From an uncultured Bacilli bacterium (GTDB lineage Bacteria > Bacillota_I > Bacilli_A > RF39 > UBA660): a stretch of 52,705 nt of DNA. The DNA is taken from assembly GCA_947630305.1 (NCBI GenBank), contig CANRHC010000003.1, positions 1 through 52,705 of the forward strand, read 5' to 3'. Positions 11,483 to 44,759 of the stretch are shown piece after piece (within the stretch, counting starts at the first letter, position 1; the number at the start of each line of letters is the position of its first letter). Below the pieces are notes generated by a model. It worked only from the letters and a program-made list of their open reading frames with translations. It made no database searches and was not told where the DNA came from. The position numbers and the translations under genes were made by a program.

Positions 11483-13336
11483 CTATAAAGCATAAACCCC
11501 TGAACGTTTTCTTGTAAAGAAACGTTCTAAAGCGTATCTTAAAGCGGCTATACCGTCATCATCTATTGAAGGTAATAAACTAGTAATATTACCTTCTTTA
11601 TCTCTTTCATATTCATAGTTAATAGCTTGTTTATAAAACATTGGTGTCCTTTTAGGATCAACTACTATCTCTATTTGACTAGCAAGCCACTTAATACCAA
11701 ATTCAACTGAACCAGGTCCTTTTTTAGCTGGTAAAGCTCTTAGTTCTTGATCTTGTAAACTTCTAATACTTTTAGGTTCAGCACTATCACAAATAATAGG
11801 ATCTTTAGGTTTTATTCCATGTTTCTTTATTTCTTCAGCCAGCTTTTCATTAGGTAAATAAGATTTACATATTTCATCAAATACAATAACTCGCTGTTGT
11901 GCTACATCATATTGAGCCCTGATAAAGAAAGAAGGATGAACCCAACCAAAGTCCAGCCCATTAACGATATTATCAAAATGAGATATTTCTTCTTCAGTTA
12001 TTTCACGTGTTACTAAATTAGGTAATATATTACCGCCTGAACCATTAGCTTCACCTAAGTATTCATTCTTATAAGCTTCAGGATTAATTTCTTTTAAGTA
12101 TTCAGCTTCTTGAATAAAAGGTTCACCTAACCATTCTTTAGGAACGTCTAAGTAAGTAGAAAAGTAAACGTTCATACTTTCTTTAGGTTCCTGAACATAC
12201 AGATTAGCCCAATTGTTTTTAGATCGTGGGGGATTAAAAGATTTAAAAATAAAGAAGTCATCACCGCCACGAACTATAGATTGCTGAACTTTACGAACTG
12301 TTTCATCACCTCTTATTTGGTCTAATTCTTCGAACCATAAAATACCAACATAACCAAAAGTAGGTGTAAAACTCTTTACTGAAGTAGGATCTGAAAGTCC
12401 TGTAAAATATATTTTTTGTCCTGTAGATATTTTAGTTATCTCTAAAGGTTTAAAAGTATATTTATAATCTTGAGTTAAACCTAATTTATCAATAGCCCAT
12501 ATTAATTGATTAAATACTGTATCTCTTAAATCTTTATCAATTTGTCTACAAACTAAAGCGTGAAAGTCTTTATTCTGTTCTATCAGATTAATTATTTCTA
12601 AAGAAATAAAACTAGATTTAGTAGAACCACGCCCACCAGGTAATACAAATTCTCTATAGTTTCTTGATCTAACATCAAAATGTAACTTAGTAAATACTGG
12701 TGCTATTACATCAATAGGTAAACCTCTATAGTTTAAGTTACTTTTACCTTCTTCTAAATCTTTTTGTCTTTTTAACTCGAACGCTTTTAATTCATTATCT
12801 AGCTGTATCTGTTTTCTACGTTCATTAATTAAACTTAAATTTTCATAGTCTGAAACCATACCAGCTAAAGTACGACTTGAAAGAGCTTCAGCATTTAAAA
12901 TAACAGGATCATTAGGATCTAACTTACTTTGAGCTTGAATATAATTAGCAAAATGAATATCAATATTATTTGATAGATTTTCTATTTTATTCTGTTCTTG
13001 AACTATTTCTAAAATCTCATTAGTTTTAGGATTTAAAAACTTAGAATAAAGCCCATGTTTTAAAGCTCTTTTATTACCTGATTCAGCTGGTATTAAATTT
13101 TCTAAACTATTAGGACTTGAACCTATTTTTGAAACTTTTGAACCTTTACTTCTAGTTTTCTTTTTTGAACCTCTAGAAGTTTCAGTTTCATTTTTAATCC
13201 AATTATCTCTTCTTTTCCATGTTTTAAGTGTATTTAGCTTTACACCTAATTCTTCAGAAATATCTTTAAGGCTAAAGCCGTCCTGCTCAAAAAGCCGTCT
13301 AGCTTCAACCTTTTGAGCGTTAACTTTTTTAGCCAT
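11483..13336 (-). CDS. Terminase: small-subunit-like N-terminus fused to PBSX-family large subunit
   Basis: N-terminal HTH (ISEELGVKLNTLKTWKRRDNW) and GNKRALKHGLY; Walker A GGRGSTKSS, WFEE, SFNPP, GLDFGW, CDSAEPK. Confidence 0.9.
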   Translation of the reverse strand: MAKKVNAQKVEARRLFEQDGFSLKDISEELGVKLNTLKTWKRRDNWIKNETETSRGSKKKTRSKGSKVSKIGSSPNSLENLIPAESGNKRALKHGLYSKFLNPKTNEILEIVQEQNKIENLSNNIDIHFANYIQAQSKLDPNDPVILNAEALSSRTLAGMVSDYENLSLINERRKQIQLDNELKAFELKRQKDLEEGKSNLNYRGLPIDVIAPVFTKLHFDVRSRNYREFVLPGGRGSTKSSFISLEIINLIEQNKDFHALVCRQIDKDLRDTVFNQLIWAIDKLGLTQDYKYTFKPLEITKISTGQKIYFTGLSDPTSVKSFTPTFGYVGILWFEELDQIRGDETVRKVQQSIVRGGDDFFIFKSFNPPRSKNNWANLYVQEPKESMNVYFSTYLDVPKEWLGEPFIQEAEYLKEINPEAYKNEYLGEANGSGGNILPNLVTREITEEEISHFDNIVNGLDFGWVHPSFFIRAQYDVAQQRVIVFDEICKSYLPNEKLAEEIKKHGIKPKDPIICDSAEPKSIRSLQDQELRALPAKKGPGSVEFGIKWLASQIEIVVDPKRTPMFYKQAINYEYERDKEGNITSLLPSIDDDGIAALRYALERFFTRKRSGVYAL

Positions 13337-13340
13337 TAAC

Positions 13341-14198
13341 TTACCTCTTAATAAAAGCCATTACGTCTTTTCTATTTCTATTAGCTGTAGTACGGAGATT
13401 ACCTGTAAATTGAATAGTATAATTTAAACCTTGTAACCATTCTTCTACTTGTTCCTGATTGTGATTAAAAAAGATAAAATCACAATTCAGTTCTACAGCT
13501 TTATTAATTAGTTGTATTGTTTCTTCTTCAGTAAATTGTCCTTTATACTGTTTCTGATAAGTACCAATATAAGGCGGATCTAAAATTAATATATTTCTTG
13601 AACTTCTAATAGCTACTTCATATTTATTTAAAAAGTCTAACCAGTCTAAATTTTCTAACTGAATTTGTTCTAGAACTCTTAAATAATTACGCTGTTTATC
13701 AGTTGCTAAATATCTATCAAATTTTATAAAATCCTGAAGTTCTATTTTCTTACTACAACCTCTAGCTGAAAAAGTAAAATTACTACCAAAAGAAAAATAC
13801 CGCCAATATTTTTCAGGAACATATTCTGAAATAATATCTTGAAGTATCTTTTTATGTTCATCACTTAATATAGCTGATTCAGCTGGTTTTTTCGTTCCGT
13901 CTAATTCAAATTGAATAACCCCATACTTCTTGTTATAAGTAGTTCTTCTTAAACCTCTTTTTAAGCCTTCTTGAACTACTTTATCCTTTAAGTCTAAGTA
14001 TTCAGGATATAAATCGAAAAAGCGGTCATAATCATTTACAACCGCTTTCTTAACTAGTTTATCGTTAAACAAATTTACTGAAAGTACACAGGAACCGCCA
14101 AAAGGTTCAAACACTCCTTCATAACTGCCAGCCTGAACAATCTCTTTAACTTGTTTATAGCTGTATCGTTTACTACCAGGAAAAGGTATAGATAGCAT
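13341..14198 (-). CDS. DNA N6-adenine methyltransferase (Dam/D12 class), orphan
   Basis: PFPGSK, EPFGGS (motif I), VND, LDPPY (motif IV). Confidence 0.85.
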   Translation of the reverse strand: MLSIPFPGSKRYSYKQVKEIVQAGSYEGVFEPFGGSCVLSVNLFNDKLVKKAVVNDYDRFFDLYPEYLDLKDKVVQEGLKRGLRRTTYNKKYGVIQFELDGTKKPAESAILSDEHKKILQDIISEYVPEKYWRYFSFGSNFTFSARGCSKKIELQDFIKFDRYLATDKQRNYLRVLEQIQLENLDWLDFLNKYEVAIRSSRNILILDPPYIGTYQKQYKGQFTEEETIQLINKAVELNCDFIFFNHNQEQVEEWLQGLNYTIQFTGNLRTTANRNRKDVMAFIKR

Positions 14199-14323
14199 AA
14201 AATTCCTAACCAGTAAAACGATAAATTTCAACACACAAAAAAGATTCAGCACTTAAAAAGCCATACGTTTTTTTCAGGGGGAATAAGCTTTTTTATGTGC
14301 TGAAGTTTACCGTTTTGAGAAAT

Positions 14324-30211: not shown

Positions 30212-30403
30212 TTATTCTAATAATACTAATGGACTGATTTTTACTACTTTACAGAATTTTTTATACTCATCTACATCCATTTTTCTATTACCATTAACTG
30301 TAGCGTTGAGTTTGGCATAATCTATTCCCATATCACGAGCTACAGCCGCCTGGTTAATATGATTAGCTTTTATAAATTCTGAAAGCTTTTCATGAAAATC
30401 CAT
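30212..30403 (-). CDS. Cro-like HTH repressor
   Basis: 63-aa HTH (INQAAVARDMGI...NGNRKM) divergent from cI. Confidence 0.8.
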   Translation of the reverse strand: MDFHEKLSEFIKANHINQAAVARDMGIDYAKLNATVNGNRKMDVDEYKKFCKVVKISPLVLLE

Positions 30404-30606: not shown

Positions 30607-31329
30607 ATGATGGCTAGTAATTATGGTGAACGTCTTAAAATGTATCGAAAACACGCTAATTTAACTCAAAAAGAACTAGCTGAAAAACTAGGAATAGATC
30701 ATACAGCCATTTCAAATTGGGAACGAGATATTTATAAATATGATATAGAAATGTTAATACCTTTAAGCAACGCTTTAGGTGTATCTGTAACAGATTTATT
30801 AGGTTTTTATACTGATTATTCTTTAAGTCCTGATGAAGAACAATTAATTAAAATTTATAGAGCTTTAGAAGAAGCTGATAAAGAAACTTTAATGAAATTA
30901 GGCCAAGCTTTAAAGGTTTTAAAGAATTCAATTAAAACAACAACTGATAAAGTAAAAACTTTTATTTCTCATCCTGTTTTCCTTATGCCAGCTTCAGCTG
31001 GTACAGGCCAGTTTTTAGATTCTGATGAATATGAATTAATAGATTTTCCTGAAGATTCAGTTCCTAGAGATTCTAATTTTGCTGTTAGAGTATCAGGAAA
31101 TTCAATGGAACCTGATTATCCTGATAAAAGTATTGTTTTTATAAAACAGGTTAAAACACTTGAACCTGGTGAAGTTGGTATTTTTATTGTTAATAATGAA
31201 GGTTTTTTAAAGAAATTAGGAGATTCAAATAACTTAATATCTATTAATCCTAATTATAAAGATATTGAAATTAAACAGTTTGATGATTGTAGAATAGTAG
31301 GAAAAGTTGTAGGTACTTACAATGAATAA
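30607..31329 (+). CDS. CI-like repressor (HTH + S24 peptidase)
   Basis: LTQKELAEKLG..ISNWE; ASAG cleavage site, VSGNSM, FLKK. Confidence 0.93.
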   Translation: MMASNYGERLKMYRKHANLTQKELAEKLGIDHTAISNWERDIYKYDIEMLIPLSNALGVSVTDLLGFYTDYSLSPDEEQLIKIYRALEEADKETLMKLGQALKVLKNSIKTTTDKVKTFISHPVFLMPASAGTGQFLDSDEYELIDFPEDSVPRDSNFAVRVSGNSMEPDYPDKSIVFIKQVKTLEPGEVGIFIVNNEGFLKKLGDSNNLISINPNYKDIEIKQFDDCRIVGKVVGTYNE

Positions 31330-31831
31330 TACAAAAGAAGCAAAAGCTAAAATTAAAAGTTACAAAAAACAGAAATATCCTAATACTAAAGCTGTTTATA
31401 TGAGCGGTATTCCAAATTTTAAAGAAGGGAACGCTTTTTTTGTCTATCTTGATACAGATAATGAAGAATTAGAATTTATTAATTATGTAGAAGAAGCTTC
31501 TTTACCTTTAGAACGTATAAAAGAAGCTACTTCTATAACTGAAAAAGAAGTTGAAGAATATGAGAAAAATAGATTAGCTTCAGGTTTAGTTACTTCAGCT
31601 TTAATAGGTCCTGTTGGTGGTTTAATTGTTGGTTTAAATAAAAAGAAGAAAAAGAAAAATACTTATCATACTTTCTTAAGTATAATTTATGAAGATAAAG
31701 CTGGTGAAGAAAATACTTTAGTTTTTAGAACACCTTCAGCTAGTAATACTAGCTTGTATTTCAATAAGTTCTTGAACAGTCTTAAACCGTATCTACCAGC
31801 TATAGAAGCACCAGCAAAAGTAGAATTATAG
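31322..31831 (+). CDS. Immunity-region membrane-associated protein
   Basis: Gly-rich hydrophobic segment (LIGPVGGLIVG) followed by poly-K; lies between cI and integrase. Confidence 0.55.
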   Translation: MNNTKEAKAKIKSYKKQKYPNTKAVYMSGIPNFKEGNAFFVYLDTDNEELEFINYVEEASLPLERIKEATSITEKEVEEYEKNRLASGLVTSALIGPVGGLIVGLNKKKKKKNTYHTFLSIIYEDKAGEENTLVFRTPSASNTSLYFNKFLNSLKPYLPAIEAPAKVEL

Positions 31832-31873: not shown

Positions 31874-33406
31874 ATGAATTGTGTTATCTATGCTAGATAT
31901 TCTAGCGAAAAACAGAACGAAAAATCAATAGAAGATCAAATAAAAGCTTGTGAAATTTTCGCTGAAGAAAATGGTTTTACTGTTATTAATACTTATATTG
32001 ATAAAGCTAAAAGCGGCAAAACCGATCACCGCCCTGGTTTTCAAACTATGATTGAAGATTCAAAAAAGAAACAATTTAAATTTGTTCTATGTTGGAAATT
32101 TGACCGTATTAGTAGGAATACCAGGGATTATTATTACTATGAAAAGATTTTATTTGATAATGGTGTAAACATTGTTTCAATTAATGAACGTATAGATGAT
32201 CCTCAAGCCGCCCCTATTATTAAGGCTGTTAATATTGGAATGGCTGAAAGTTTTAACGTTACTTTAGCTATTAATGTTAATAGAGGTATGCGAGCGAACG
32301 CTCAAAAATGTAAATCTAATGGTTCTTTACCTATTGGCTACCAGTCTGATAAAGAAGGTATTATAAGTTTAGATTCTAAAGTAGCCCCATATATTGAAGA
32401 AGCTTTTAAATTATTTCTTAGTGGTTATTCTTATACAGATATAGCTAATTACTTTAATGATGAAGGTATTAGAACTAAAAAAGGCGGTTTATTTAATGGT
32501 AATGGTATTAAAAGAATTTTAGGTAATTCTAGATATACTGGTATTTATCAATATCAGGATATAGTTATTGATGGTGGTATGCCTTCTATAGTAGATAAAG
32601 AAACTTTTTTAGAAGTTCAGGATAAAATGAAAAATTATACACGCCCCCATAATAATAAAGATAAACAAGAAAGATATTATTTAAGAAATAAACTATTTTG
32701 CTACAACTGTAACCAGCCAATGAAAATTAGTTGTGGTACTTCTAAAAATGGTGAAATTTATAGATATTATAAATGTGGCTGTCAATCTGTTAGAAAAGAT
32801 TATATAGAACCGCTGGTAATTCAGTTAACTAAAAAATATATTCTTACTGAAGAAACTATTGAAAAGATAGCGGATTATATAATGAATTTACAGAAAGAAT
32901 TAAAGAAGAACGCTAAAGAAGTTTCTTTAGCAAAAGAAATAAAAGAGATTGATAAAAAGATTGATAATGTTTGTGATTTATTCATGAATGGTTTAGATAG
33001 TCCAGCTCTAAGAGAAAAACTAGAAAAACTTGAGAATGATAAGAAACAGTTAGAAATAAAATTAGCTTTAGAAAAAACTTATAATAAAGATATTTCTAGA
33101 GATAGTTTAATTTGGTATCTGAATCAGTTTAAAGACATGAAAGAAGGAGATAAAGAACTTGAAGAAAAGCTTATCAATGATTTAGTAATGTATGTTTATC
33201 TTCAAGAGGATAAAATTTGGATTCAATATAAATATGCGGAGAAAAATAAAGACACTCAAGCCCTTAGTTTAAAAGAACTTGAGTGTTCGATGAATTCACA
33301 ATTGGTGAACCTAATGAGTGTTCACTCGAACCTCTCAATAAGCAACGATAGAAATTATATAATATTAAAGGTATCTCTGCAAGTAAAAAATACAAAATAT
33401 TTATAA
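31874..33406 (+). CDS. Large serine recombinase (integrase)
   Basis: YARYSS catalytic Ser, DRISR, recombinase domain, CYNC...YYKC Zn ribbon, coiled coil. Confidence 0.95.
   Translation: MNCVIYARYSSEKQNEKSIEDQIKACEIFAEENGFTVINTYIDKAKSGKTDHRPGFQTMIEDSKKKQFKFVLCWKFDRISRNTRDYYYYEKILFDNGVNIVSINERIDDPQAAPIIKAVNIGMAESFNVTLAINVNRGMRANAQKCKSNGSLPIGYQSDKEGIISLDSKVAPYIEEAFKLFLSGYSYTDIANYFNDEGIRTKKGGLFNGNGIKRILGNSRYTGIYQYQDIVIDGGMPSIVDKETFLEVQDKMKNYTRPHNNKDKQERYYLRNKLFCYNCNQPMKISCGTSKNGEIYRYYKCGCQSVRKDYIEPLVIQLTKKYILTEETIEKIADYIMNLQKELKKNAKEVSLAKEIKEIDKKIDNVCDLFMNGLDSPALREKLEKLENDKKQLEIKLALEKTYNKDISRDSLIWYLNQFKDMKEGDKELEEKLINDLVMYVYLQEDKIWIQYKYAEKNKDTQALSLKELECSMNSQLVNLMSVHSNLSISNDRNYIILKVSLQVKNTKYL
33281..33334. 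other. Candidate attP inside the integrase 3' end
   Basis: Imperfect ~50-bp inverted repeat GAGTGTTCGATGAA...TTCACTCGAACCTC centred on TGGTGAACC. Confidence 0.5.
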
Positions 33407-33421
33407 TTTTTTTATTACTAC

Positions 33422-33450
33422 TTTACTAAACTATTGTTTAATAGTAAAAT
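33422..33450 (+). promoter_or_regulatory. Promoter of the HTH gene with one operator
   Basis: TTTACT-17-TAAAAT containing TACTAAACTATTGTTTAATA. Confidence 0.6.
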
Positions 33451-33468
33451 ATATTTGAGGTGATTAAA

Positions 33469-33660
33469 ATGACAAATTTACAAAAAATTAGAGAAAAAAG
33501 AGATATAAGTAAATATAGATTATCCCAGCTTTCAGGTTTATCTCAAACTTACATAGGGAGAATAGAAAACGGTTCTACCAGTATAGAGAATGTTACTCTA
33601 AAGAATATTCGATTATTAGCAAAAGCTTTAAATGTTGATTATACTGAACTTTTAGATTAA
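33469..33660 (+). CDS. XRE-family HTH regulator (Aca-like position)
   Basis: LQKIREKRDISKYRLSQLSGLSQTYIGRIENG; ATG 33469 after GAGGTG. Confidence 0.85.
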   Translation: MTNLQKIREKRDISKYRLSQLSGLSQTYIGRIENGSTSIENVTLKNIRLLAKALNVDYTELLD

Positions 33661-33689
33661 AGATCAGTATAATTTTTTTTTTGGAATAA

Positions 33690-33731
33690 TACTAAACTAT
33701 ATTTGACTACTAAAATATATTTTAGTATAAT
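33690..33731 (+). promoter_or_regulatory. Consensus sigmaA promoter P1 with tandem operators
   Basis: TTGACT(33703)-17-TATAAT(33726); perfect palindrome TACTAAAATATATTTTAGTA at 33708-33727. Confidence 0.85.
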
Positions 33732-33760
33732 ATTTATATAAATTAATTGAGGTGATTTAA

Positions 33761-33970
33761 ATGAAAGATATACTAATTTATGAAACATTTAGAAAAGCTT
33801 ATAGTACAAAAGATATTAAACATACTATGAAGGTTGGTGAATTAATAGAATATTTACAGGACTTTGAACATGATACACCAATTTATTTAAGTTTTGACGC
33901 TGGTTATACTTTTGGTTCAGTTGATAAAACAGAATTTGAACTTGTAGATAAAAACGATGAAAATTATTAA
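33761..33970 (+). CDS. Small acidic hypothetical protein
   Basis: Own promoter and GAGGTG RBS. Confidence 0.75.
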   Translation: MKDILIYETFRKAYSTKDIKHTMKVGELIEYLQDFEHDTPIYLSFDAGYTFGSVDKTEFELVDKNDENY

Positions 33971-33985
33971 ATTTTTTTAAAATAA

Positions 33986-34027
33986 TACTAATTTATAGTT
34001 GACTACTAAATTATATTTTAGTATAAT
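33986..34027 (+). promoter_or_regulatory. Consensus sigmaA promoter P2 with tandem operators
   Basis: TTGACT(33999)-17-TATAAT(34022); TACTAAATTATATTTTAGTA. Confidence 0.85.
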
Positions 34028-34056
34028 ATCTATAGAAGTTAAGAAAGAGGAAAAAA

Positions 34057-34443
34057 ATGAAAACTTATAAAGTTATAGCAAAAAATAAAGAAACAGGAAA
34101 AAGAGAATTAGTAAAAGTTGAAGCTCATACCAAAAAAGAAGCTAATATTAAAATTAGAATAATGGGCTACAGTTTTTCTGAAAGAAAGCTAAAAGAAGAA
34201 AAATTATTTAATTGGATAATAGATAAAATGGATGACGCTTATACTAATGAAGAAGAAAGAGCATTATATAGATTTAATAAAATTCCAAAAACTGAAGAAG
34301 AATATAAAAACTTATTTAGAAAATATACAAAAAGAGAAATCGAAATTAAAGTAGATAGACATTTTAAATATAAACAGAAAAAAGAAGAAGAAAGAGAATA
34401 TAGAGAAAATTTAAAAAGATTCGGAATTGAACCAATATTTTAA
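34057..34443 (+). CDS. Basic, charged hypothetical protein
   Basis: Own promoter and RBS. Confidence 0.7.
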   Translation: MKTYKVIAKNKETGKRELVKVEAHTKKEANIKIRIMGYSFSERKLKEEKLFNWIIDKMDDAYTNEEERALYRFNKIPKTEEEYKNLFRKYTKREIEIKVDRHFKYKQKKEEEREYRENLKRFGIEPIF

Positions 34444-34455
34444 AATTTTTTTAAA

Positions 34456-34501
34456 ATTATACTAAACTATTGTTGACTAATAAACAATAGTTTAGTATAA
34501 T
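34456..34501 (+). promoter_or_regulatory. Consensus sigmaA promoter P3 with tandem operators
   Basis: TTGACT(34473)-17-TATAAT(34496) within a 19-bp perfect inverted repeat. Confidence 0.85.
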
Positions 34502-34531
34502 ATCTATAGAAGTTAAGAAAGAGGTGAAAAC

Positions 34532-35332
34532 ATGAAATACACATACGGAATGAGATTAAGAGGATTTTCAATCGGTTGCCAGCCTAAAAAGGGCTTTTTA
34601 GAAAGAAAGGATGATAAAGAAGGTAAATATCACGATCTTATTGTTTATGATAGAAAATTAACTGATGAAGAAGTTAAAAGATATGATTTAGATTTAATAG
34701 AAAGTGAAGAAGAAATGAAAGAAACAAAAGCTACAGTAATACCAATGATAAAACAACTTGAAAGTTTATTTTCAAAACTAAATGATAAATTCTTTGAAGG
34801 AAAACTTGAAACACCAGTTATTACAATAGCCCCTGATACATGTAGAGCATATGGCTGGTTTACTACTTTTAGAGCTTGGAAAGAAACAGATAATAAAGAA
34901 TCTGAAGGTTACTATGAAATTAATGTAACTTGTGATTACTTAAATAGAACACCAGTTGAAATTGCTACTACATTACTTCATGAAATGGTTCATCTATATT
35001 GTGAAATGAATGGTATTAAAGATACATCAAGAAGTGGTAATTATCATAACAAGAATTACAAGAAAGCCGCTGAAGATCATGGCTTAATTGTTACTAAAGT
35101 TGAAAAAAGCGGATTCAGCCAAACTGAACCAACAACTGAAACCGCTGAATACCTTGATTCTTTAAATCTTAAGTTTGATCTATATCGACCAACTCCTGAA
35201 AAAGAACAGGTTATTAAAAAGTCTAGTACAAGAAAGTATGTTTGTCCACATTGTGGTTCAATTATTAGAGCCACTAAACCAGTTAGAGTTATTTGTGCTG
35301 ATTGTGGTGTTGAATTTGAAGAAGTTGTTTAA
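34532..35332 (+). CDS. DarA_C-like domain fused to SprT-like Zn metalloprotease
   Basis: N-terminal YGMRLRGFSIGCQP...YDRKL; TLLHEMVH, YHNK, C-terminal CPHC...CADC. Confidence 0.75.
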   Translation: MKYTYGMRLRGFSIGCQPKKGFLERKDDKEGKYHDLIVYDRKLTDEEVKRYDLDLIESEEEMKETKATVIPMIKQLESLFSKLNDKFFEGKLETPVITIAPDTCRAYGWFTTFRAWKETDNKESEGYYEINVTCDYLNRTPVEIATTLLHEMVHLYCEMNGIKDTSRSGNYHNKNYKKAAEDHGLIVTKVEKSGFSQTEPTTETAEYLDSLNLKFDLYRPTPEKEQVIKKSSTRKYVCPHCGSIIRATKPVRVICADCGVEFEEVV

Positions 35333-35373
35333 ATCTTAAATAGCTTCTTTACTTTCTTCTTATTATATATAGT

Positions 35374-35403
35374 AAAGGAGCTGTCTAAACAGCTCCATTT
35401 TTT
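35374..35403. terminator. Bidirectional terminator between convergent genes
   Basis: GGAGCTGT/ACAGCTCC stem flanked by A and T tracts. Confidence 0.7.
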
Positions 35404-38195
35404 TAACTACATCCAGTAGTACTACCACAATCTAAACAGGTTTTACAAACACCAGTTTTAACCATGTTAGAACTACCACAACTAGGACAAGTTTCACCAT
35501 ATAACCTAGTTGGTTCTTCATCAATTTCTATAGCAGGTTTATTATTTAAAGGTTTTTCAGTTTGTGGCTTTACCTGTACATAATTATAGTTACCACATTC
35601 TATATCAATTACTTTACTAACTAAATCAGCTATTGAATCAGCAAATTTAATATTAGGGTGTCTACTTACAATTCCTGCTGGTTCAAATTTGTGTCCTCTT
35701 AACATTTTAGATATTTCTTCAGGATTAATACCAAATTGAAGCATATAAGAAATAGCTTTAGAAAGAGCTGATAAAAGTCCTTTAATGGTTGTACCTTCTT
35801 TATCAGTTGAGATAAAGAGTTCAGCTAATTCTCCATTATCATAATAACCAACAGTTATATATAAATTCAGGTTTTCTATTGTTACAGCATGAGTTCTACT
35901 ATTTCTAATTGGGCTAGGTTTAATTCTAGTAGGTAAGGTTCTTTCTTCTTTTTCTTCTTCAAGTTCTTCAGATTCTTTAGATTCTTTAGATTCTTCAATT
36001 TTTGTATTTAATGGTTGAGAAGCCTTACAACCATCCCTGTAAACTGTAATAGCTTTAACACCTGAATTATAGGCTAGATCATTAATGTTCATTATATCTT
36101 GAACAGTAGCTGAATTTGGTAAGTTTATAGTTTTACTAACAGCCCCTGATATTAATGGAGTAACAGCCGCTACCATCTTAACATGAGCTTCAGGACTTAT
36201 TTCATTAGCTGTTTGAAGTACTTTCTGAAGATTTTCACCAATATTAGGACAACCTTGATAAGTTCCATGTTTTTCAAAATAATCGTTTATTTGATCTTTA
36301 CAAGCATGATAAACACCGTTAGAAACAGAAATAAGATATTCTTCAGCTAAAGGATTAGCTATTACCATTGTAGAACCATCAGAACAATTTTTATAAATTC
36401 TATGTGAAAAGAATGGTTCTATTGAAGTAGCCCCACAATCCATAGCAAAAGAAATAGTTCCTGTTGGTGCTATACAACTTACTTGAGCATTCCTGAAACC
36501 GTTCTTTTTACCACTATTAAAAGCTTTACGCCAAATTTCTTGAAGTGCTTCAGCTAGATTAGCTGGTACTAAATCTAAATTAACTTTTTCAGGTTCTATA
36601 TTTAAAAAACCATTATTAACATAATCATCTGTATAAGCACCAGCCACAATACAATGATTAAATATTACATTTAACATTGAAGAACTGTTTTCTTTATATT
36701 TTTCAAAAGTTCCTATTTCTTTAGCCATTAAAGAAGAAACATAATAAGAGTAACCAGTCATAATACCAGTTAAAGTAGCTGCTAAAGCTCTAGCTTCATC
36801 ACTATCATAAGCTAAACCTTGAGCTAAGAATAAAGAAGCATAATTAGTTAAACCTAATCCTGTTGGTCTATATAAGTATGATCTTTCAGCTACAGCTTTA
36901 GTAGGATATTGACCCCAAAAGATTGAAGCTTCAAGAACCAGCTGAATTAAACCTATTATATGAAGAAAAGCTTCAATATCAAAAGAACCATCTTCATTAA
37001 GAAATTTTAAAAGGTTAATACTAGCTAAATTACAAGCGGTATTATCAAGAAAAACAAACTCTGAACAAGGATTAGAAGCTCTTATTACATCTTCATTCAA
37101 ACAGGTATTCCAGGCGTTTATAGTATCTGAAAATTGCAAGCCAGGATCCGCACAATTCCAAGCGGCTTTATTGATCTTTTCCCATAAATCATAAGCTTTT
37201 ACAGTTTTATTTACTTTAGAATCAGTTATACCGTATAAAACATAATCAGCTTCAGGATCATTCTTCTTAGTCATAAAATTTCTATCAACTCTAACTGAAT
37301 TGTTTGAATTTTGACCTGAAACTGTTTTATAGGCTTCTCCGTTCATGCTGGTATCATAACCAGCTTTACCTAAAGCTCTAACTTTATCTTCTTCTTTAGC
37401 TTTCCAATCAATAAAAGCTTCTATTTCAGGATGATTACTATCTAGAATAACCATTTTAGCGGCCCTTCTAGTAGTACCACCTGATTTAATAGCACCAGCG
37501 TTTCTATCTAACCCATATAGAAAAGACATAACACCGCTAGATTTACCGCCTGAACTTAAGCTTTCACCATCAGCCCTTATATTTGAAAAGTTTGTACCAA
37601 CGCCTGAACCACCTTTAAATAGTTTAGTTTCAATAGCGTAATGATCTGAAATAGATTCAGTTCCTAATAATTGATCTTTAATAGGAATGATAAAACAGGC
37701 TGAACTTTGACTTCTAGAATATCTATCTTTTGATCTTACAACCTTTTTTTCTTCAGGATCATAATAATAAGTATAATCATGATCCGCTTCTATACCATAT
37801 TTATTTAAACCAGTATTAAACCATTGAGGACTATTAGGAGCCCATATTTGGCTGATTATTGTATAAGCTAATTCATCATAAACAATAGAAGCTTCTTCAT
37901 CAGAATTTATTAAACCTTCTTCTTTTAGAGCTTCAACCCAAAACCAACACATTCTATCTACTACTTGTTTTAAAGAAGTTTCAGGAATAGCTCTAAAGAA
38001 ATATTTACTAGCTATAATATTACAAGCGTTTTCAGAATAAAAATCAGGAAATTCAGCCCCTTTAATCTGATATATTACTTCACCAGTTTTATAATTGTGA
38101 AGGGTAATATCTTTTTTAACCCAGTTGAATAGCTCAAAAACTGATTGATTGTCTTTAAGCTTTTTTGTATAGTGTCTTTTTATTATCTTTTTCAT
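35403..38195 (-). CDS. nrdJ: Class II (B12-dependent) ribonucleotide reductase
   Basis: PNSPQWFNTG, SACFI, GGTTRRAAKM, SNPCSE, APTGTIS, VYRDG, C-terminal CPSC/CLDCG..GCS. Confidence 0.93.
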   Translation of the reverse strand: MKKIIKRHYTKKLKDNQSVFELFNWVKKDITLHNYKTGEVIYQIKGAEFPDFYSENACNIIASKYFFRAIPETSLKQVVDRMCWFWVEALKEEGLINSDEEASIVYDELAYTIISQIWAPNSPQWFNTGLNKYGIEADHDYTYYYDPEEKKVVRSKDRYSRSQSSACFIIPIKDQLLGTESISDHYAIETKLFKGGSGVGTNFSNIRADGESLSSGGKSSGVMSFLYGLDRNAGAIKSGGTTRRAAKMVILDSNHPEIEAFIDWKAKEEDKVRALGKAGYDTSMNGEAYKTVSGQNSNNSVRVDRNFMTKKNDPEADYVLYGITDSKVNKTVKAYDLWEKINKAAWNCADPGLQFSDTINAWNTCLNEDVIRASNPCSEFVFLDNTACNLASINLLKFLNEDGSFDIEAFLHIIGLIQLVLEASIFWGQYPTKAVAERSYLYRPTGLGLTNYASLFLAQGLAYDSDEARALAATLTGIMTGYSYYVSSLMAKEIGTFEKYKENSSSMLNVIFNHCIVAGAYTDDYVNNGFLNIEPEKVNLDLVPANLAEALQEIWRKAFNSGKKNGFRNAQVSCIAPTGTISFAMDCGATSIEPFFSHRIYKNCSDGSTMVIANPLAEEYLISVSNGVYHACKDQINDYFEKHGTYQGCPNIGENLQKVLQTANEISPEAHVKMVAAVTPLISGAVSKTINLPNSATVQDIMNINDLAYNSGVKAITVYRDGCKASQPLNTKIEESKESKESEELEEEKEERTLPTRIKPSPIRNSRTHAVTIENLNLYITVGYYDNGELAELFISTDKEGTTIKGLLSALSKAISYMLQFGINPEEISKMLRGHKFEPAGIVSRHPNIKFADSIADLVSKVIDIECGNYNYVQVKPQTEKPLNNKPAIEIDEEPTRLYGETCPSCGSSNMVKTGVCKTCLDCGSTTGCS

Positions 38196-41033: not shown

Positions 41034-42182
41034 TCACGTCTTATTAATTTCTTCACTAATAAAAGTATTTAAAACATCATCTAGTTGTTGCTGTTTCTTT
41101 AAATGTGCTTTATATCTATCACTTGAAGAAATTATTTGTCTTAGCCTTTTTCTGTTTACTAAAGGTTTAATATATTTTAAAAAGTAATTATAGGTATCGC
41201 TCTTTCTTAGAAATTCTAAATAACACATCATTGATCTAGCGTCATAACCTGTTATCTTTTTACCAGCTTTAAGTTTTTTATCTAAATGAAGTGCTTTTCT
41301 TCTAGCACGTCTTAAAATAGATTTTCTTAAAGTGGTTTTATTTCTGTAAAATCTGAAGCCTAAAAAATCTATATCTCTACCGTTCTTATCATTCTTATCA
41401 ACAAATCTAAATATCTGCCAGTTTTCCTTAAGCCTTAATTTAAGTTTGTTATTTAAGTATTCTTCTATTCTATCTTTAATTTTATGTAGTTTTCTTTTAT
41501 TAGGACAAAGAATAACTATATCATCCATATATCTAATATAATGATCTACTTTTAATTCTTGTCTAACAAAATTATCAAATTCCTGCATAAAATAATTAGA
41601 AAACCATTGAGAACAGTAAACACCTTTAGGGAGTCCTGGTTGATAAGTATCAAGTAATTGTTGTATCAAACTTAAATATTTTTGATCGTTAATAATATGC
41701 TGAAGTTTAAACATTAATAAAGAATGATCTATAGAATCATAGAACTTCTTTATATCAGCTTTAAAAACATAAAATCTTTTATTACCATAAGATTTTATCC
41801 ATTTTTCTAAAGCTTTTTTACCTGTTATACAACCTCTACCAGGAATAGAGCCACAAACAAAATCATCAATAGATTTAAGTACAATCGGTTTAAATTCAAT
41901 CATAATCATGTGATGAACTATTTGATCGTAAATAAATTTAGGTTTAGTTATTGTTCTAACCTTTTTATCTGAACCTTCATTAATCACACTAATAGAATAA
42001 GGTTTAAACTGATATTCACCAGTAAGTAAAAGATTTCTAAGTTTCTTCTTATGATAATCCCAATTCTGATAAATCCGTTTAACGTAGGATCTATTCTTTT
42101 TACCTTTACTAGCGCCTTCTAAAGCTAGATCCATTACCTCATCAGTTAACATATCTTCAAACAGATTGTTATATGATTTCAT
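41034..42182 (-). CDS. DGR reverse transcriptase
   Basis: KADIKKFYDSI, GLPKGVYCSQ (DGR-type GxxxSQ), YIRYMDD, IDFLG; 382 aa with no maturase or endonuclease extension. Confidence 0.95.
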   Translation of the reverse strand: MKSYNNLFEDMLTDEVMDLALEGASKGKKNRSYVKRIYQNWDYHKKKLRNLLLTGEYQFKPYSISVINEGSDKKVRTITKPKFIYDQIVHHMIMIEFKPIVLKSIDDFVCGSIPGRGCITGKKALEKWIKSYGNKRFYVFKADIKKFYDSIDHSLLMFKLQHIINDQKYLSLIQQLLDTYQPGLPKGVYCSQWFSNYFMQEFDNFVRQELKVDHYIRYMDDIVILCPNKRKLHKIKDRIEEYLNNKLKLRLKENWQIFRFVDKNDKNGRDIDFLGFRFYRNKTTLRKSILRRARRKALHLDKKLKAGKKITGYDARSMMCYLEFLRKSDTYNYFLKYIKPLVNRKRLRQIISSSDRYKAHLKKQQQLDDVLNTFISEEINKT

Positions 42183-42480: not shown

Positions 42481-42524
42481 TCGGGGGATAAATCCCCCGA
42501 ACCCCCAATCGGTGCTTACGCACC
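42481..42524. promoter_or_regulatory. Hairpins downstream of VR (target-recognition cruciform candidates)
   Basis: TCGGGGGA-TAAA-TCCCCCGA at 42481-42500 and GGTGC-TTAC-GCACC at 42511-42524. Confidence 0.7.
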
Positions 42525-44759
42525 TGTAGGTGGCTCAAAAGAAAGACGGGCACAGCACGAGCCACGGAAATCGCCGCCGTAGTAGTAGTAGAACCACGAG
42601 GACGCAAGCCCTCTTAAACCGCCCCTTCTAACACCTATATGTGTGCCTGATACATATTTCGAAAATTCAATTGGATCACATTCATAAGTACTAGAAGTAG
42701 CACCTATTTCTGAAGGTACTCTACCATAATTATTATCTAAAACTGATGTTTTTATATTTCCTGTTTTAGTAACAAAAGTAGATTGATTAGTATAACCACT
42801 AGTAGTACCTTGTCCATTAGCCGCAATTGTAGCATATGGTCTTTGAGTTTTTACATATAAAGTACCAGTAGCTGTATCATCATTTTTTGAAGTAACTAAA
42901 GTTCCGTCCATCATTTCAGCAAGCGGTTTAGAACGGTCTGAAAAATAATCTTCAATGTGCATAAATTTTACACATCCTGAAGTAGTATCTACAGCTATAG
43001 GTCCTGATTCAGCAAATAATCCTGTTTTTAGACTAGGTAAAGTACCTTCCGAGCCATAATTTACTTCACCGGCTCCTTGTCTACCTTTTCCTAAAACAGA
43101 ACAGTTTTCAGTTTTAAATATGATATTAAAAATCATATCTAACACCTGATATAAAGCCCATGTTGCTAAACCATAGTTTTCACCATTTTTAAGAGCTGTA
43201 TTTCTAATATCGAATGAACTTGATCTTGTTGAAGCAGGGAACATTACATTTTGTCCTGAAATACTTCTTAATTTAGTACCATCATTTGAACCTAAGAACA
43301 TAGCGATAAACTGGTTTTCTAATTCAGCACCTTCAGAATTGGTAAAGCCTAAAGGAACATAGCCATCTTTAGGACTATCTGTAATACTCATATATTCATA
43401 AGTACTATCACTCCAAAATCTAGTGTACATTTTTTCAACGCATACCATAGCGTTACCATCATAAGAAGTTTGGCCTATATCAGAATAATCACCATCAAGT
43501 TTTTTAGCATAGTTATAAGGATCTAGTAAATAATCAATAGTACCATTAGTTTTAAGCATAACAGGATAGATTTTTTCAAAGAAGAAAGTATCTAACCAAT
43601 CTCCGTAATTAACAGTTGAGCCTTCAACGCTTCCTGGTGTCATTCCTGTAGCGTCATCCTGATATTCAACACGTTCTGTAGGATCTTCAGTATTCTTGTT
43701 AATTCTAATGGTATAAACACCACCTATACTAAATCTAGCGTTATAACTCTTAGCTTCAGAAACATTTACTTTAACTGTTTTTTCAGGAAAATCATCACAG
43801 GTTAAAGTCCATTCACCCAGTTCACTTACTAAGAAAGTACAAGTTCTATTAGTAACAGTTTGTTCTAAAGTAGTATTATCTAATGTACATTTAAGAACTT
43901 TTCCATCTATTTTAGAATCAGTCTTAACTATAATCATAGGAATACCGCTTGAGCTTTCATCTATCTTAATTTCAGTAGAATAAGAAGTAGCTGAATCAAC
44001 ACTAACTGTTTGACTAATATAAGAATTGCCTTCTACCCCAATTGTCCATGTACCAGTTTTATGTACATTAAACTTAACATTAGTAGATAAAGCTTTTTCT
44101 TTATAAGTAGTACCTTCTTGTTTACAGGTTATAGTTGAACCTACTAAAGCACTAGGTAAACTTACTCTAATAGTTGCTGTAAATTCATAGAATTCAGCAA
44201 GCGTAATTAATGGATTTTCTACTTCAATAGTTAAAACTAAAGCGTCTAAATTGTTTTTAACAGTATAAGAACCGCCATCAGGAATAACTATATCTGCTAT
44301 ACCATTTTCTACAACAGCTGAATATTCTTGTGAATCAGCCTTATTAGTAGCTGTAAATGTTTTTCCTTCATATTTTGAATCACAAGTAACTCTAATTACA
44401 AGTGAAGCTGAACCAGTTCCATTTTCTTCTATCTCAGAAACTTGTTCTTTTAAATTTGAAATATCACTTTTATTAGTTTCAATATTTTGTGTGTTTGTAC
44501 TTACACTACTTTTTAAATTTGTTATATCAGTTGTGTTAGTACCTACACTAGATTCTAAATTTGTAACGTTACTCTCAATTGCTGATATTGAATCCTTAAT
44601 CCCCTTTACGGTGGTACTATCACCACCGTAAAGAGTTGTAGCGTCTTTTTGTGTTAAGAATTCTGATTGCAAAAGAGTATGTATTTCAGGAATATCTTCT
44701 TTTGTTAAAAAAGGATTTTCTTTTGATGATTCCCAATCATAAATTTTAGCCATATTCAC
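42516..44759 (-). CDS. DGR target: tail fibre/receptor-binding protein
   Basis: Last gene of the fibre block; coiled coil, about three beta-rich repeats, C-terminal RRGG...ARL (CLec-like) segment containing VR; likely ATG at 44753. Confidence 0.85.
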   Translation of the reverse strand: MNMAKIYDWESSKENPFLTKEDIPEIHTLLQSEFLTQKDATTLYGGDSTTVKGIKDSISAIESNVTNLESSVGTNTTDITNLKSSVSTNTQNIETNKSDISNLKEQVSEIEENGTGSASLVIRVTCDSKYEGKTFTATNKADSQEYSAVVENGIADIVIPDGGSYTVKNNLDALVLTIEVENPLITLAEFYEFTATIRVSLPSALVGSTITCKQEGTTYKEKALSTNVKFNVHKTGTWTIGVEGNSYISQTVSVDSATSYSTEIKIDESSSGIPMIIVKTDSKIDGKVLKCTLDNTTLEQTVTNRTCTFLVSELGEWTLTCDDFPEKTVKVNVSEAKSYNARFSIGGVYTIRINKNTEDPTERVEYQDDATGMTPGSVEGSTVNYGDWLDTFFFEKIYPVMLKTNGTIDYLLDPYNYAKKLDGDYSDIGQTSYDGNAMVCVEKMYTRFWSDSTYEYMSITDSPKDGYVPLGFTNSEGAELENQFIAMFLGSNDGTKLRSISGQNVMFPASTRSSSFDIRNTALKNGENYGLATWALYQVLDMIFNIIFKTENCSVLGKGRQGAGEVNYGSEGTLPSLKTGLFAESGPIAVDTTSGCVKFMHIEDYFSDRSKPLAEMMDGTLVTSKNDDTATGTLYVKTQRPYATIAANGQGTTSGYTNQSTFVTKTGNIKTSVLDNNYGRVPSEIGATSSTYECDPIEFSKYVSGTHIGVRRGGLRGLASSWFYYYYGGDFRGSCCARLSFEPPTGA
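42543..42613 (-). repeat. DGR variable repeat (VR), 71 nt
   Basis: Same two arms as TR around TAC TAC TAC TAC GGC GGC GAT. Confidence 0.95.

What the first reader, a model, noticed from the sequence alone, without database searches (positions are those of the whole stretch)
33422..35332. HTH-controlled array of promoter-gene cassettes: candidate anti-defence regulon
Seen: a 63-aa HTH gene is followed by three genes, each with its own TTGACT-17-TATAAT promoter. Each promoter is overlaid by two tandem 20-bp sites of consensus TACTAAA-N6-TTTAGTA, and the HTH promoter carries one such site. P2 and P3 share the identical leader TTTAGTATAATATCTATAGAAGTTAAGAAAGAGG. The motif differs from the cI/cro operators. 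Established: Acr-Aca loci use strong promoters shut off by a small HTH at inverted repeats. Inference: a burst-then-repress anti-defence island independent of CI, whose repeated promoter units might also allow cassette gain or loss by recombination. The 69-aa acidic and 128-aa basic proteins are candidate new inhibitors.
Basis: partly seen in the sequence, partly recalled or inferred. Interest (0 to 1): 0.75.

Follow-up and report, generated by a model that had tools for sequence, protein, structure and literature searches.

The report
Repressor-controlled promoter cassettes in a gut phage
A temperate phage from rabbit gut carries, next to its integrase, a small DNA-binding regulator followed by three genes that each sit behind a copy of the same very strong, palindrome-wrapped promoter; it looks like a switchable, swappable set of early "establishment" or counter-restriction genes, a kind of arrangement already described in other mobile elements.

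Summary
A 63-aa XRE-type HTH gene (33469-33660) is followed by three genes. Each gene sits behind a copy of a 97-nt unit made of an A/T tract, TTGACT-17-TATAAT and a leader. These are 3 of only 6 promoter matches of 11/12 or better in the 52.7-kb window. The TACTAAA-N6-TTTAGTA motif is confined to this locus. New points: each promoter lies inside a 19-pair palindrome, and the HTH's own upstream region is a degenerate copy of the unit. The HTH is most like R-M controller (C) proteins. Gene 3 is a DarA_C + SprT/Spartan-like Zn-protease fusion. The gene 2 domain is found fused to DarA_C elsewhere. In another rabbit-gut sample a contig of a ~90% identical relative skips 772 nt, which is both small cassettes, with the junction in the T-run of units 1 and 3. 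Best reading (0.45): a PeSL-like array of promoter-operator cassettes, shut off by the HTH, that expresses early establishment or counter-restriction genes. HTH binding, timing of expression and defence inhibition are all untested. No known anti-defence protein is matched apart from the domain-level DarA_C match of gene 3. One Aca regulator acting on several anti-defence operons is already in print (2026). This scan has also noted repeated promoter-operator cassettes on other DNA. Verdict: a new variant of a known kind, of moderate interest.

The parts
31874..33406 (+). Large serine integrase; context: last gene of the cI-orf169-int lysogeny block, directly upstream of the locus
   Evidence: Pfam Resolvase 4.2e-28 + Recombinase 1.3e-18; phrog_95 integrase 3.5e-98
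33402..33468 (+). P0: degenerate fourth copy of the promoter unit upstream of the HTH gene. Holds one palindromic site at 33424-33443 and a weak promoter TTTACT-17-TAAAAT at 33422-33450 (9/12)
   Evidence: Repeat family D2, 4 copies; alignment A1 shows a 26-nt gap that removes the -10 and leader; site with 1 mismatch; promoter scan; no hairpin signal, z 0.02
33469..33660 (+). 63-aa XRE-type HTH, candidate repressor of P0-P3
   Evidence: HTH_3 7.1e-13; PADLOC R-M Control_protein 4.1e-12; PDB C.AhdI 1e-5 and C.BclI 1.5e-5
33664..33760 (+). Unit 1 (P1): A/T tract, -35 at 33703-33708, -10 at 33726-33731, sites 33690-33709 and 33708-33727, long palindrome 33686-33731, SD
   Evidence: hairpin -11.9 kcal/mol, z -3.5
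33761..33970 (+). g69: 69-aa acidic protein (pI 4.55, GC 25%), unknown function
   Evidence: phrog_3939, unknown function, 1.2e-7; only 2 relatives in the 5.8-billion-protein set; a 50% identical relative sits in an early operon of MT836011; structure model poor, pLDDT 48
33960..34056 (+). Unit 2 (P2): -35 at 33999-34004, -10 at 34022-34027, sites 33986-34005 (3 mismatches) and 34004-34023 (0 mismatches), palindrome 33982-34027
   Evidence: hairpin -11.4 kcal/mol, z -1.7
34057..34443 (+). g128: 128-aa basic protein (pI 9.59, GC 22%); new small domain family that occurs fused to DarA_C elsewhere
   Evidence: No Pfam, PHROG, NCBIfam or PADLOC family; 15 proteins at E<=1e-3, itself included, in the exhaustive search; P0008 and the L093 protein are DarA_C + g128-like fusions; model pLDDT 97 without a convincing fold match
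34434..34530 (+). Unit 3 (P3): -35 at 34473-34478, -10 at 34496-34501, sites 34460-34479 and 34478-34497, perfect 19-pair palindrome 34456-34501
   Evidence: hairpin -22.4 kcal/mol, z -7.1; pair counts
34532..35332 (+). g266: DarA_C domain (residues 1-53) + SprT/Spartan-like Zn metalloprotease (76-183, HEMVH) + C-terminal zinc ribbon
   Evidence: Pfam DarA_C 2.6e-12, SprT-like 3.9e-8; NCBIfam anti_RE_DarA 1.1e-7, domain-level only; PDB Spartan 6mdw E 0.029; phrog_6361 8e-32
35377..35396 (.). Two-way intrinsic terminator shared with the convergent ribonucleotide reductase gene; the only terminator-like site downstream of P1-P3
   Evidence: 8 pairs, 5 G-C, T-run on both strands

Best explanation
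The locus is an array of three portable promoter-operator cassettes governed by a small repressor. It is placed at the end of the lysogeny block of a temperate myophage.

Anatomy (shown): each cassette has an A/T-rich UP-like tract and a near-consensus sigma-70-type promoter. The -35 lies in the loop and the -10 at the foot of a 19-pair palindrome. The palindrome holds four TACTAAA/TTTAGTA-type half-sites. A short leader with SD and one gene follow.

Mechanism (inferred): when the DNA enters a cell without the regulator, host RNA polymerase fires P1-P3 at once. No terminator separates the cassettes, so the transcripts are nested and all end at 35377-35396. The DarA_C-SprT protease gene therefore gets the sum of the three promoters. 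The 63-aa XRE/C-protein-like HTH is made from a weak, degenerate copy of the same unit, or by read-through from the integrase gene. It binds as dimers to the two adjacent dyads that cover the -35 and the spacer/-10. This shuts the three promoters and its own, and keeps them silent in the lysogen.

Payload (inferred from domains only): early establishment or counter-restriction proteins. They are a Spartan/ArdC-type Zn-protease led by a DarA_C domain, a second small domain that elsewhere is fused to DarA_C, and a small acidic protein.

Turnover: because the units are repeats, homologous exchange between them removes or adds cassettes, as PeSLs do in T4-type phages. One such difference is seen in a relative.
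For: Anatomy. The motif at up to 2 mismatches occurs 8 times in the window and 6 of these are in the locus. It is absent from the cI/cro gap. The HTH's own upstream region carries a site.

Regulator: the HTH is closest to R-M controller proteins (PADLOC 4.1e-12; C.AhdI and C.BclI). These bind two adjacent operator sites, and the second dimer represses (abstracts of PMC1885659 and PMC2504287 in the listing). Aca proteins bind promoter-proximal sequences with two inverted repeats (PMC7104187, passages). They are predicted, and for Aca14 shown, to control several neighbouring anti-defence operons (PMC13551039, passages).

Payload: DarA_C + SprT. ArdC's protease domain is Spartan-like and ArdC is needed early in the recipient against hsdRMS (PMC7213743, abstract and passages). 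The g128 domain is fused to a 49-63% identical DarA_C domain in P0008 and L093. L093, a rabbit-gut MAG, has the same position after a serine integrase (E 1.2e-53). It also has three repeated promoter-like units of its own and an LPD1/HExxH polyvalent-type protein. A g69 relative lies in an early operon.

Turnover: run X5 (another sample and study) has a contig joining 33673 to 34446. It skips 772 nt, with 7 shared letters in the T-run of units 1 and 3. Depth falls to 2.2 in 33842-34175 against 60-105 in the flanks. PeSL anatomy and shuffling: PMC2839356, abstract and section 13.
Against: There is no binding, expression or phenotype data. No RNA run holds the stretch.

The 'operators' are also the two arms of one hairpin. 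91% of cells pair, against 30-50% when the partner is slid, and two pairs change on both sides. With 3 sequences, 52 of 500 shuffles reach this. A structural role could therefore explain the symmetry without the HTH. The upstream site's right half is simply the -35.

The L093 relative has repeated units with another motif (CCCTGTACA) and no HTH next to them. So a dedicated HTH is not a fixed part of this kind of array.

Most DarA_C-like genes in IMG/VR are stand-alone (47 of 66 ORFs are 100 aa or shorter). Most have no strong promoter of their own.

No known anti-defence protein is matched by g69 or g128. DarA_C has no known biochemical activity (PMC5512222, passages).

The X5 joint rests on one contig with a 56-nt side, and what lies between is 'not known'.

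Low GC (22-25% against 30.8%) and the place beside the integrase also fit morons.
Confidence: 0.45

Rival explanations
1. Prophage 'morons'. The three genes are lysogen-expressed accessory genes (superinfection exclusion, host fitness or defence) with their own promoters beside the integrase. The HTH only tunes them or answers to a signal.
For: Position next to the integrase and convergent with the lytic genes. Own promoters and a terminator. GC of g69 and g128 is 22-25% against 30.8% for the window. Content varies between relatives.
Against: Near-consensus promoters with UP-like tracts, fully overlaid by dyads and next to a repressor-type HTH, point to tight shut-off rather than steady expression. 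No PADLOC defence family is hit by g69, g128 or g266. The domain links are to DarA, SprT and polyvalent-protein families of invading elements. A g69 relative sits in an early lytic operon.
Confidence: 0.2
2. The palindromes are chiefly structural, of the PeSL type. They are stem-loops that attenuate read-through, stabilise or process the nested mRNAs, and serve as recombination points. The HTH is a neighbour with another task, such as control of integrase or excision, or a second immunity function.
For: A 19-pair stem in all three units: -11.4 to -22.4 kcal/mol, z -1.7 to -7.1. Two pairs with compensatory changes. The anatomy matches the PeSL description: stop codon in an AT-rich tract, sigma-70 promoter, stem-loop between or over the boxes, SD (PMC2839356, section 13). 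L093 has repeat units without an HTH.
Against: The stems are A/T-rich and no U-run follows them, so they are not called as terminators. The degenerate P0 copy keeps one dyad exactly between a -35 and a -10 although it has lost the hairpin (z 0.02). That fits a protein site better than a stem. The covariation is not significant with 3 sequences (52 of 500 shuffles).
Confidence: 0.17
3. A regulator-protease pair. The SprT-like protease (g266) cleaves the small HTH or another repressor, as ImmA does ImmR or IrrE does DdrO. The locus would then be an induction or anti-repression switch.
For: An HTH and an HExxH metalloprotease lie in one block beside the integrase. ArdC, Spartan and IrrE are structurally related (PMC7213743, passages).
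Against: No Peptidase_M78/ImmA match. Two unrelated genes and three promoters lie between the HTH and the protease. CI has its own S24 self-cleavage domain (5.4e-21). The DarA_C lead domain is shared with non-protease partners.
Confidence: 0.06
4. A C-protein-type timing switch for a toxic module (remnant of an R-M or abortive-infection cassette), in which the HTH first activates and then represses.
For: The best family matches of the HTH are R-M controller proteins. There are two adjacent dyads, as in OL/OR (abstracts).
Against: No endonuclease or methyltransferase in the locus; the only methyltransferase-like ORF is at 13344-14252. The promoters are already near consensus, so activation is not needed. 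Both dyads overlap core promoter elements.
Confidence: 0.05

Closest known systems
Acr-Aca operons, including Aca proteins that control several neighbouring anti-defence operons (PMC13551039, 2026; PMC7104187)
   Same: Small HTH repressor. Strong promoters overlaid by two inverted repeats. A site at the regulator's own gene. Small, poorly conserved payload genes. Polyvalent-protein (LPD) domains are reported among Aca-regulated genes.
   Different: The HTH is upstream with its own weak promoter, not the last gene of the operon. There is one promoter copy per gene. No known Acr. Not shown to belong to any numbered Aca family (no Aca library on hand). The HTH is closest to R-M controller proteins.
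PeSLs (promoter-early stem-loops) of T4-type phages RB49 and phi1 (Arbiol et al. 2010, PMC2839356)
   Same: Repeated regulatory cassettes. Stop codon in an AT-rich tract, consensus sigma-70 promoter, stem-loop between or over the -35/-10 boxes, SD, and one small gene that is often an ORFan. Recombination between units adds or removes genes.
   Different: Here the phage is a temperate phage of a low-GC gut host and has only three units. The stems are A/T-rich without G/C tracts or terminator features. The stem arms carry a dyad motif shared with the promoter region of an adjacent repressor gene.
CUP-controlled regulon of IncN plasmids (ArdK; Delver and Belogurov 1997, as cited in PMC6289460)
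   Same: One small repressor binds conserved upstream sequences in front of several establishment or antirestriction genes and of its own gene.
   Different: Plasmid leading region of enterobacteria. Unrelated regulator and sites. ardA/ardB payload.
R-M controller (C) proteins such as C.AhdI, C.BclI and C.Esp1396I
   Same: Closest sequence relatives of the HTH. Small dimers that bind two adjacent dyad operators at a promoter; the second dimer represses.
   Different: No R-M genes here. The operator motif differs from the sites described for those proteins (not compared base by base). An activating step is unlikely, as the promoters are already near consensus.
ArdC of plasmid R388 and polyvalent proteins (PMC7213743; Iyer et al. 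2017, PMC5512222)
   Same: A lead domain followed by a Spartan/SprT-like Zn-metalloprotease, made early in the newly entered cell. DarA and MPTase domains belong to the polyvalent-protein repertoire.
   Different: The lead domain is DarA_C, not ArdC-N. The protein is small and is expressed from a promoter rather than carried in with the DNA. Function untested.

Membership tests
Acr-Aca locus | Contains a gene homologous to a validated anti-CRISPR or anti-defence protein | tested here: inconclusive
   No such match in Pfam, PHROGs, NCBIfam or PADLOC for g69 and g128. g266 matches DarA_C/DarA at domain level only. No dbAPIS, AntiDefenseFinder or Acr library was on hand.
Acr-Aca locus | Regulator belongs to a described Aca family | not testable with these tools
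   Only generic HTH_3/XRE matches. No Aca HMMs are held.
Acr-Aca locus | aca lies downstream of the acr gene(s) in the same operon | tested here: not met
   The HTH gene (33469-33660) precedes the three genes and has its own upstream unit.
Acr-Aca locus | Inverted repeats overlapping the -35/-10 of a strong promoter | tested here: met
PeSL (promoter-early stem-loop) | Consensus sigma-70 promoter with an AT-rich upstream tract, repeated before small genes | tested here: met
   Three units, 11/12 promoters, T/A tracts
PeSL (promoter-early stem-loop) | Stable stem-loop between or over the promoter boxes | tested here: met
   -11.4 to -22.4 kcal/mol; z -3.5, -1.7 and -7.1; 91% of cells paired
PeSL (promoter-early stem-loop) | Stem-loop acts as terminator or attenuator | not testable with these tools
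   Not called as an intrinsic terminator and no U-run follows. Needs a reporter assay.
PeSL (promoter-early stem-loop) | Gene gain or loss between units in close relatives | tested here: inconclusive
   One contig joint 33673->34446 in run X5, with a depth dip. Side of 56 nt; the letters between are not known.
R-M controller (C) protein system | Small XRE HTH related to C proteins | tested here: met
   PADLOC Control_protein 4.1e-12; C.AhdI 1e-5, C.BclI 1.5e-5
R-M controller (C) protein system | Linked restriction endonuclease and methyltransferase genes | tested here: not met
   Neighbours are the integrase, g69, g128 and g266. The only methyltransferase-like ORF is about 20 kb away.
Pfam DarA_C (PF18789) | Score above the gathering cut-off | tested here: met
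   47.5 bits against 27, residues 1-53
Pfam SprT-like (PF10263) | Score above the gathering cut-off and an HExxH motif | tested here: met
   33.5 bits against 25.6, residues 76-183; HEMVH read in the translation
ArdC | N-terminal ArdC-N ssDNA-binding domain | tested here: not met
   The Pfam scan of g266 lists DarA_C, SprT-like, Zn_ribbon_SprT and Peptidase_M91 only.
ImmR/ImmA-type regulator-protease pair | Peptidase_M78 (ImmA/IrrE) protease next to the repressor | tested here: not met
   No M78 match for g266. Two genes lie between.

The most novel reading that the evidence does not exclude
The palindrome-wrapped promoter is both the operator of a dedicated repressor and the recombination site of an integrase-free, integron-like cassette system. 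Through it, temperate gut phages would swap early counter-defence genes. DarA_C would be a common adaptor domain that brings different effector domains (a Spartan-like protease, the new g128 domain, LPD-type domains) to one host target such as a restriction complex.
Probability: 0.12. Interest if true: 0.75.

Novelty: new variant of a known kind. Interest (0 to 1): 0.45.

Why it matters
If the reading holds, the locus gives three things. First, a compact and experimentally tractable repressor/operator pair from an uncultured gut phage. Second, three candidate early establishment or counter-restriction proteins. One of them (g128) is a confidently folded domain with no known relatives of known function, and it is linked by gene fusion to DarA_C. 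Third, a natural example outside T4-type phages of repeated promoter units acting as break points for gene exchange. It would also support using shared regulatory sequences to find anti-defence genes, as was done for archaeal viruses (PMC11065993, abstract) and for Aca motifs (PMC13551039).

Tried and rejected
Close relatives with the same promoter: none found.
- The double-site pattern gave 0 matches in viral, genome and metagenome contigs.
- Integrase and g266 gave no IMG/VR relative.
- The HTH gave 6 loci of 32-47% identity with other contexts.
- g266 was found in 1 of 53 genomes of the family of G001, and that one is L093 itself.

The single-site pattern gave 20 loci. Eighteen are S. aureus prophage ends, with TTGACTAATAAACATTTGTTTAGTATAAT after the lysin terminator and a small HTH about 350 nt downstream (17.9 bits only). 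Two are a cI/cro-like switch of another phage. I read these as convergent, not related.

The leader TATAAT-N3/4-TATAGAAGTTAAGAAA is not specific to this phage. It occurs in 4 viral and 16 metagenome contigs behind other strong promoters and before unrelated genes. So the shared leader of window P2/P3 and L093 unit 3 is weak evidence of common descent.

Proteins and folds:
- The g69 model was too poor to search (pLDDT 48).
- The Protein Atlas could not read these sequences.
- Complex prediction (HTH dimer) was not available.

Other checks:
- No RNA holder is listed among the sequencing runs.
- Rfam found nothing in 33000-35600 below E 0.28.
- No whole genome is held for the window.
- The location of attP and the prophage ends was not determined.
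Full report
WHAT THE WINDOW IS. PHROG scans of 63 ORFs and of the local genes show a circularly permuted temperate myophage genome. The window is 52,705 nt long and has 30.8% GC.
- On the minus strand a cro-like gene (30215-30403) leads into replication genes, then terminase, portal, head, sheath and tail genes. These wrap round the window ends.
- They are followed by a reverse transcriptase beside a tail protein, then holin, endolysin and a 930-aa ribonucleotide reductase (35403-38195).
- The only plus-strand block is cI with an S24 domain (30607-31329), orf169, a large serine integrase (31874-33406), the HTH and the three genes of the finding. It ends at a two-way terminator at 35377-35396.
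- No whole genome is held for the window.
- The stretch is held by rabbit-gut and gut metagenome runs of three studies, none of them RNA.

THE OBSERVATION. It is confirmed.
- The HTH gene (ATG 33469, 63 aa, HTH_3 E 7.1e-13) is followed by genes of 69, 128 and 266 aa.
- The repeat finder gives three direct copies of a 97-nt unit at 33664-33760, 33960-34056 and 34434-34530, 72-87% identical to the reference.
- Each unit has TTGACT-17-TATAAT. These are the three best of 37 promoter-like sites in 29.5-36.5 kb. The total number of sites there is not above chance (40.1 +/- 6.6 in shuffles).
- They are 3 of only 6 sites of 11/12 or better on both strands of the whole window. The other three lie inside ORFs.
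- TACTAAA-N6-TTTAGTA at up to 2 mismatches occurs 8 times against 2.2 +/- 1.5 in shuffles (0 of 100 shuffles reach 8). Six of the 8 are at 33424-34497. The upstream site of P2 needs 3 mismatches.
- P2 and P3 share an identical 34-nt -10/leader stretch.
- The cI/cro gap holds CAAATTTG-type repeats instead.

(a) The two 'tandem sites' of each promoter are the arms of one long palindrome.
- It has 19 pairs around the loop GACTA(C/A)TA. Part of the -35 lies in the loop and the -10 at the foot of the stem.
- As RNA the units fold at -11.9 (z -3.5), -11.4 (z -1.7) and -22.4 kcal/mol (z -7.1).
- On the three-row alignment, 91% of cells pair, against 30-50% when the partner is slid by 1-3 columns. Two pairs change on both sides. 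With three sequences, 52 of 500 shuffles do as well, so covariation is only suggestive.

(b) The right half of each upstream site is simply the -35 hexamer.

(c) The region upstream of the HTH gene is a fourth, degenerate copy of the unit (repeat family D2).
- It has lost 26 nt holding the -10 and leader (alignment A1).
- It has no hairpin signal (z 0.02).
- It keeps one dyad, exactly between a weak TTTACT-17-TAAAAT promoter (9/12).

(d) Each unit starts with a T/A tract that looks like an UP element. That name is recalled and was not tested.

(e) No terminator-like site separates the cassettes. Transcripts from P1, P2 and P3 should therefore be nested and end together.

THE PROTEINS.
- HTH: a generic XRE-type protein. 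Its best specific matches are controller (C) proteins of restriction-modification systems: PADLOC Control_protein 4.1e-12, and C.AhdI 1e-5 and C.BclI 1.5e-5 among 4 PDB sequences at E<=1e-3.
- g266: DarA_C (residues 1-53, 47.5 bits, cut-off 27) + SprT-like (76-183, 33.5 bits, cut-off 25.6, HEMVH) + a zinc ribbon. It also hits NCBIfam anti_RE_DarA at domain level (1.1e-7, far below that model's cut-off) and human Spartan weakly (E 0.029). Of the 120 best relatives listed from 538, 12 carry both Pfam domains and 108 carry SprT-like only. The latter are about 205 aa, for example 'SprT-like domain-containing protein' of Eubacterium hominis. The fusion is thus a rare variant of a common gut-Firmicute protein.
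- g128: no family in four libraries, and only itself in the word-indexed search. The exhaustive search found 15 proteins at E<=1e-3, itself included. One of them, P0008 (306 aa), has a DarA_C domain at 1-54 (1.8e-9). That domain is 49% identical to the g266 N-terminus in the BLASTP segment and 63% over 60 aligned residues. P0008 also has a g128-like domain at 191-278 (35% identity, E 3e-15). The two neighbouring genes of the window therefore share a domain partnership. The g128 model is confident (pLDDT 97) but has no convincing fold match.
- g69: matches only phrog_3939, of unknown function. It has two relatives in 5.8 billion proteins and one phage record, MT836011. There the 50% identical gene is the third gene of an early plus-strand operon next to a cro/cI-like pair and a serine recombinase. 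Its model is unusable (pLDDT 48).

RELATIVES.
No collection holds the double-site promoter.

The most useful relative is L093, a contig of a rabbit-gut Eubacteriaceae MAG.
- It has a serine integrase (E 1.2e-53 to the window's), then five small unknown genes.
- Next come a 340-aa DarA_C + g128-like fusion and a 407-aa LPD1 protein with HEWGH (LPD1 2.1e-15). A convergent lysin-like gene follows.
- It has its own three copies of a 56-nt upstream unit at 1623, 3136 and 3912. These carry a different motif (CC(C/A)TGTACA), and no HTH lies beside them.
- So the position after the integrase, the repeated promoter-like units and the polyvalent-type domains recur. The regulator and operator do not.

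DarA_C-like domains are common in IMG/VR: 64 loci. 47 of 66 matching ORFs are 100 aa or shorter. Most lie inside operons without a strong promoter of their own.

Laying contigs of four runs from other samples on 29.5-39.5 kb gave the following.
- In X5 (another study, a relative about 90% identical, depth about 80), one contig at depth 58.7 joins 33673 to 34446. It skips 772 nt, which is exactly g69 and g128 with units 1/2. The junction is in the T-run of units 1 and 3, with 7 shared letters.
- Depth is 2.2 in 33842-34175 against 60-105 in the flanks. The side is 56 nt and 'between' is not known, so a replacement cannot be ruled out.
- X7 has contigs in which the P1 core (33706-33768) is flanked by other DNA and followed by another SD and start.
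- X6 (depth 2.6) joins 33419 to 34069 with 22 other letters between.
- These hints point to variable content. They come from short metagenome contigs and are weak.

MECHANISM. Shown: the anatomy, the restriction of the motif to this locus, the family matches, the fusion link and one structural difference in a relative. Everything below is inferred.
- P1-P3 are strong host-type promoters that fire on entry.
- The HTH is made from the weak P0 or by read-through from the integrase gene. It binds as dimers to the two adjacent dyads over the -35 and the spacer/-10, and to the single dyad in P0.
- This gives a burst and then shut-off, and silence in the lysogen. C proteins repress in this way through a second, adjacent dimer (abstracts of PMC1885659 and PMC2504287). 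Aca proteins do so through two promoter-proximal inverted repeats (PMC7104187, passages).
- The repeated units can act as cross-over points, as shown for PeSLs. Their description matches these units closely: stop codon in an AT-rich tract, sigma-70 promoter, stem-loop between or over the boxes, SD, ORFan (PMC2839356, abstract and section 13).

The main uncertainty is whether the symmetry serves a protein, a stem, or both. The dyad kept in the hairpin-less P0 favours a protein site. The compensatory changes and the HTH-less array of L093 favour a stem.

COMPARISON AND NOVELTY.
- One regulator acting on several neighbouring anti-defence operons is in print. Aca proteins are predicted to do so and Aca14 is shown to repress two operons. 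LPD/polyvalent domains are noted among Aca-regulated genes (PMC13551039, 2026, abstract and passages).
- Conserved upstream sequences bound by ArdK in front of ardB, ardK and repA are known for IncN plasmids (PMC6289460, passages citing Delver and Belogurov 1997).
- Regulatory-sequence-guided discovery of anti-defence genes is published for archaeal viruses (PMC11065993, abstract).
- This scan has itself noted repeated promoter-operator cassettes on other DNA and a promoter-per-gene array in another phage of the same data set. I did not check those notes.
- New here: the combination of a PeSL-like palindromic promoter with a C-protein-like repressor in a temperate gut phage; the particular operator; the g128 domain family; and its fusion link to DarA_C.
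- I did not search the literature for the g128 or g69 families by name, as they have none.

VERDICT. This is a new variant of a known kind, interest 0.45. Confidence in the full best explanation is 0.45. By my own split, with no tool behind it: about 0.9 that the units are real repeated strong promoters, about 0.55 that the HTH is their repressor, and about 0.35 that the payload is counter-defence.

Noticed in passing
window 41037-42182 (-) and 42519-44759 (-): A reverse transcriptase (phrog_1423, 9.5e-96) lies next to a 747-aa tail protein, with a 330-nt gap between them. This is a likely diversity-generating retroelement aimed at the tail fibre. Template and variable repeats were not looked for.
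   Followed up: no
window 34057-34443 and proteins P0005-P0018: g128 founds a small, unnamed domain family. There are 15 proteins at E<=1e-3, g128 itself included. The AlphaFold model is very confident (pLDDT 97) and there is no convincing match in PDB or BFVD.
   Followed up: partly
L093 1623-1678, 3136-3191, 3912-3967: The related rabbit-gut MAG prophage has its own three-copy 56-nt upstream unit with a CC(C/A)TGTACA motif (a palindrome, CCCTGTACATTCACAGGG, in copy 2). The units lie before groups of small unknown genes after the integrase. No regulator was identified.
   Followed up: partly
L095-L114 (4 viral, 16 metagenome contigs): The 16-nt leader TATAGAAGTTAAGAAA, placed 3-4 nt after a consensus TATAAT, recurs behind strong TTGAC(A/T)-type promoters in many unrelated contigs and before unrelated genes. 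It may be a favoured start region of strong promoters in low-GC anaerobes.
   Followed up: partly
L001-L006, L009-L020 (S. aureus prophage right ends, e.g. StauST398-5): After the lysin terminator there is a promoter, TTGACTAATAAACATTTGTTTAGTATAAT, that is 26 of 29 identical to P3 of the window. It has a dyad in the spacer and a 66-aa HTH about 350 nt downstream. The genes are annotated as hypothetical. It looks like a convergent autoregulated accessory operon.
   Followed up: partly
window 31322-31831 (+): orf169 overlaps the cI stop codon. It matches only PHROGs of unknown function (phrog_17658, 2e-14). By eye it has a hydrophobic stretch followed by a lysine run. It is a candidate lysogen-expressed membrane protein.
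   Followed up: no
window 11486-13336 (-): The 617-aa terminase ORF matches small-subunit PHROGs at its N-terminus (phrog_509, residues 5-136) and large-subunit PHROGs over the rest. This may be a fused small+large terminase.
   Followed up: no
window 35403-38195 (-): The 930-aa ribonucleotide reductase ends in two CxxC pairs (read in the translation). It is convergent with the cassette array and shares the terminator at 35377-35396.
   Followed up: no
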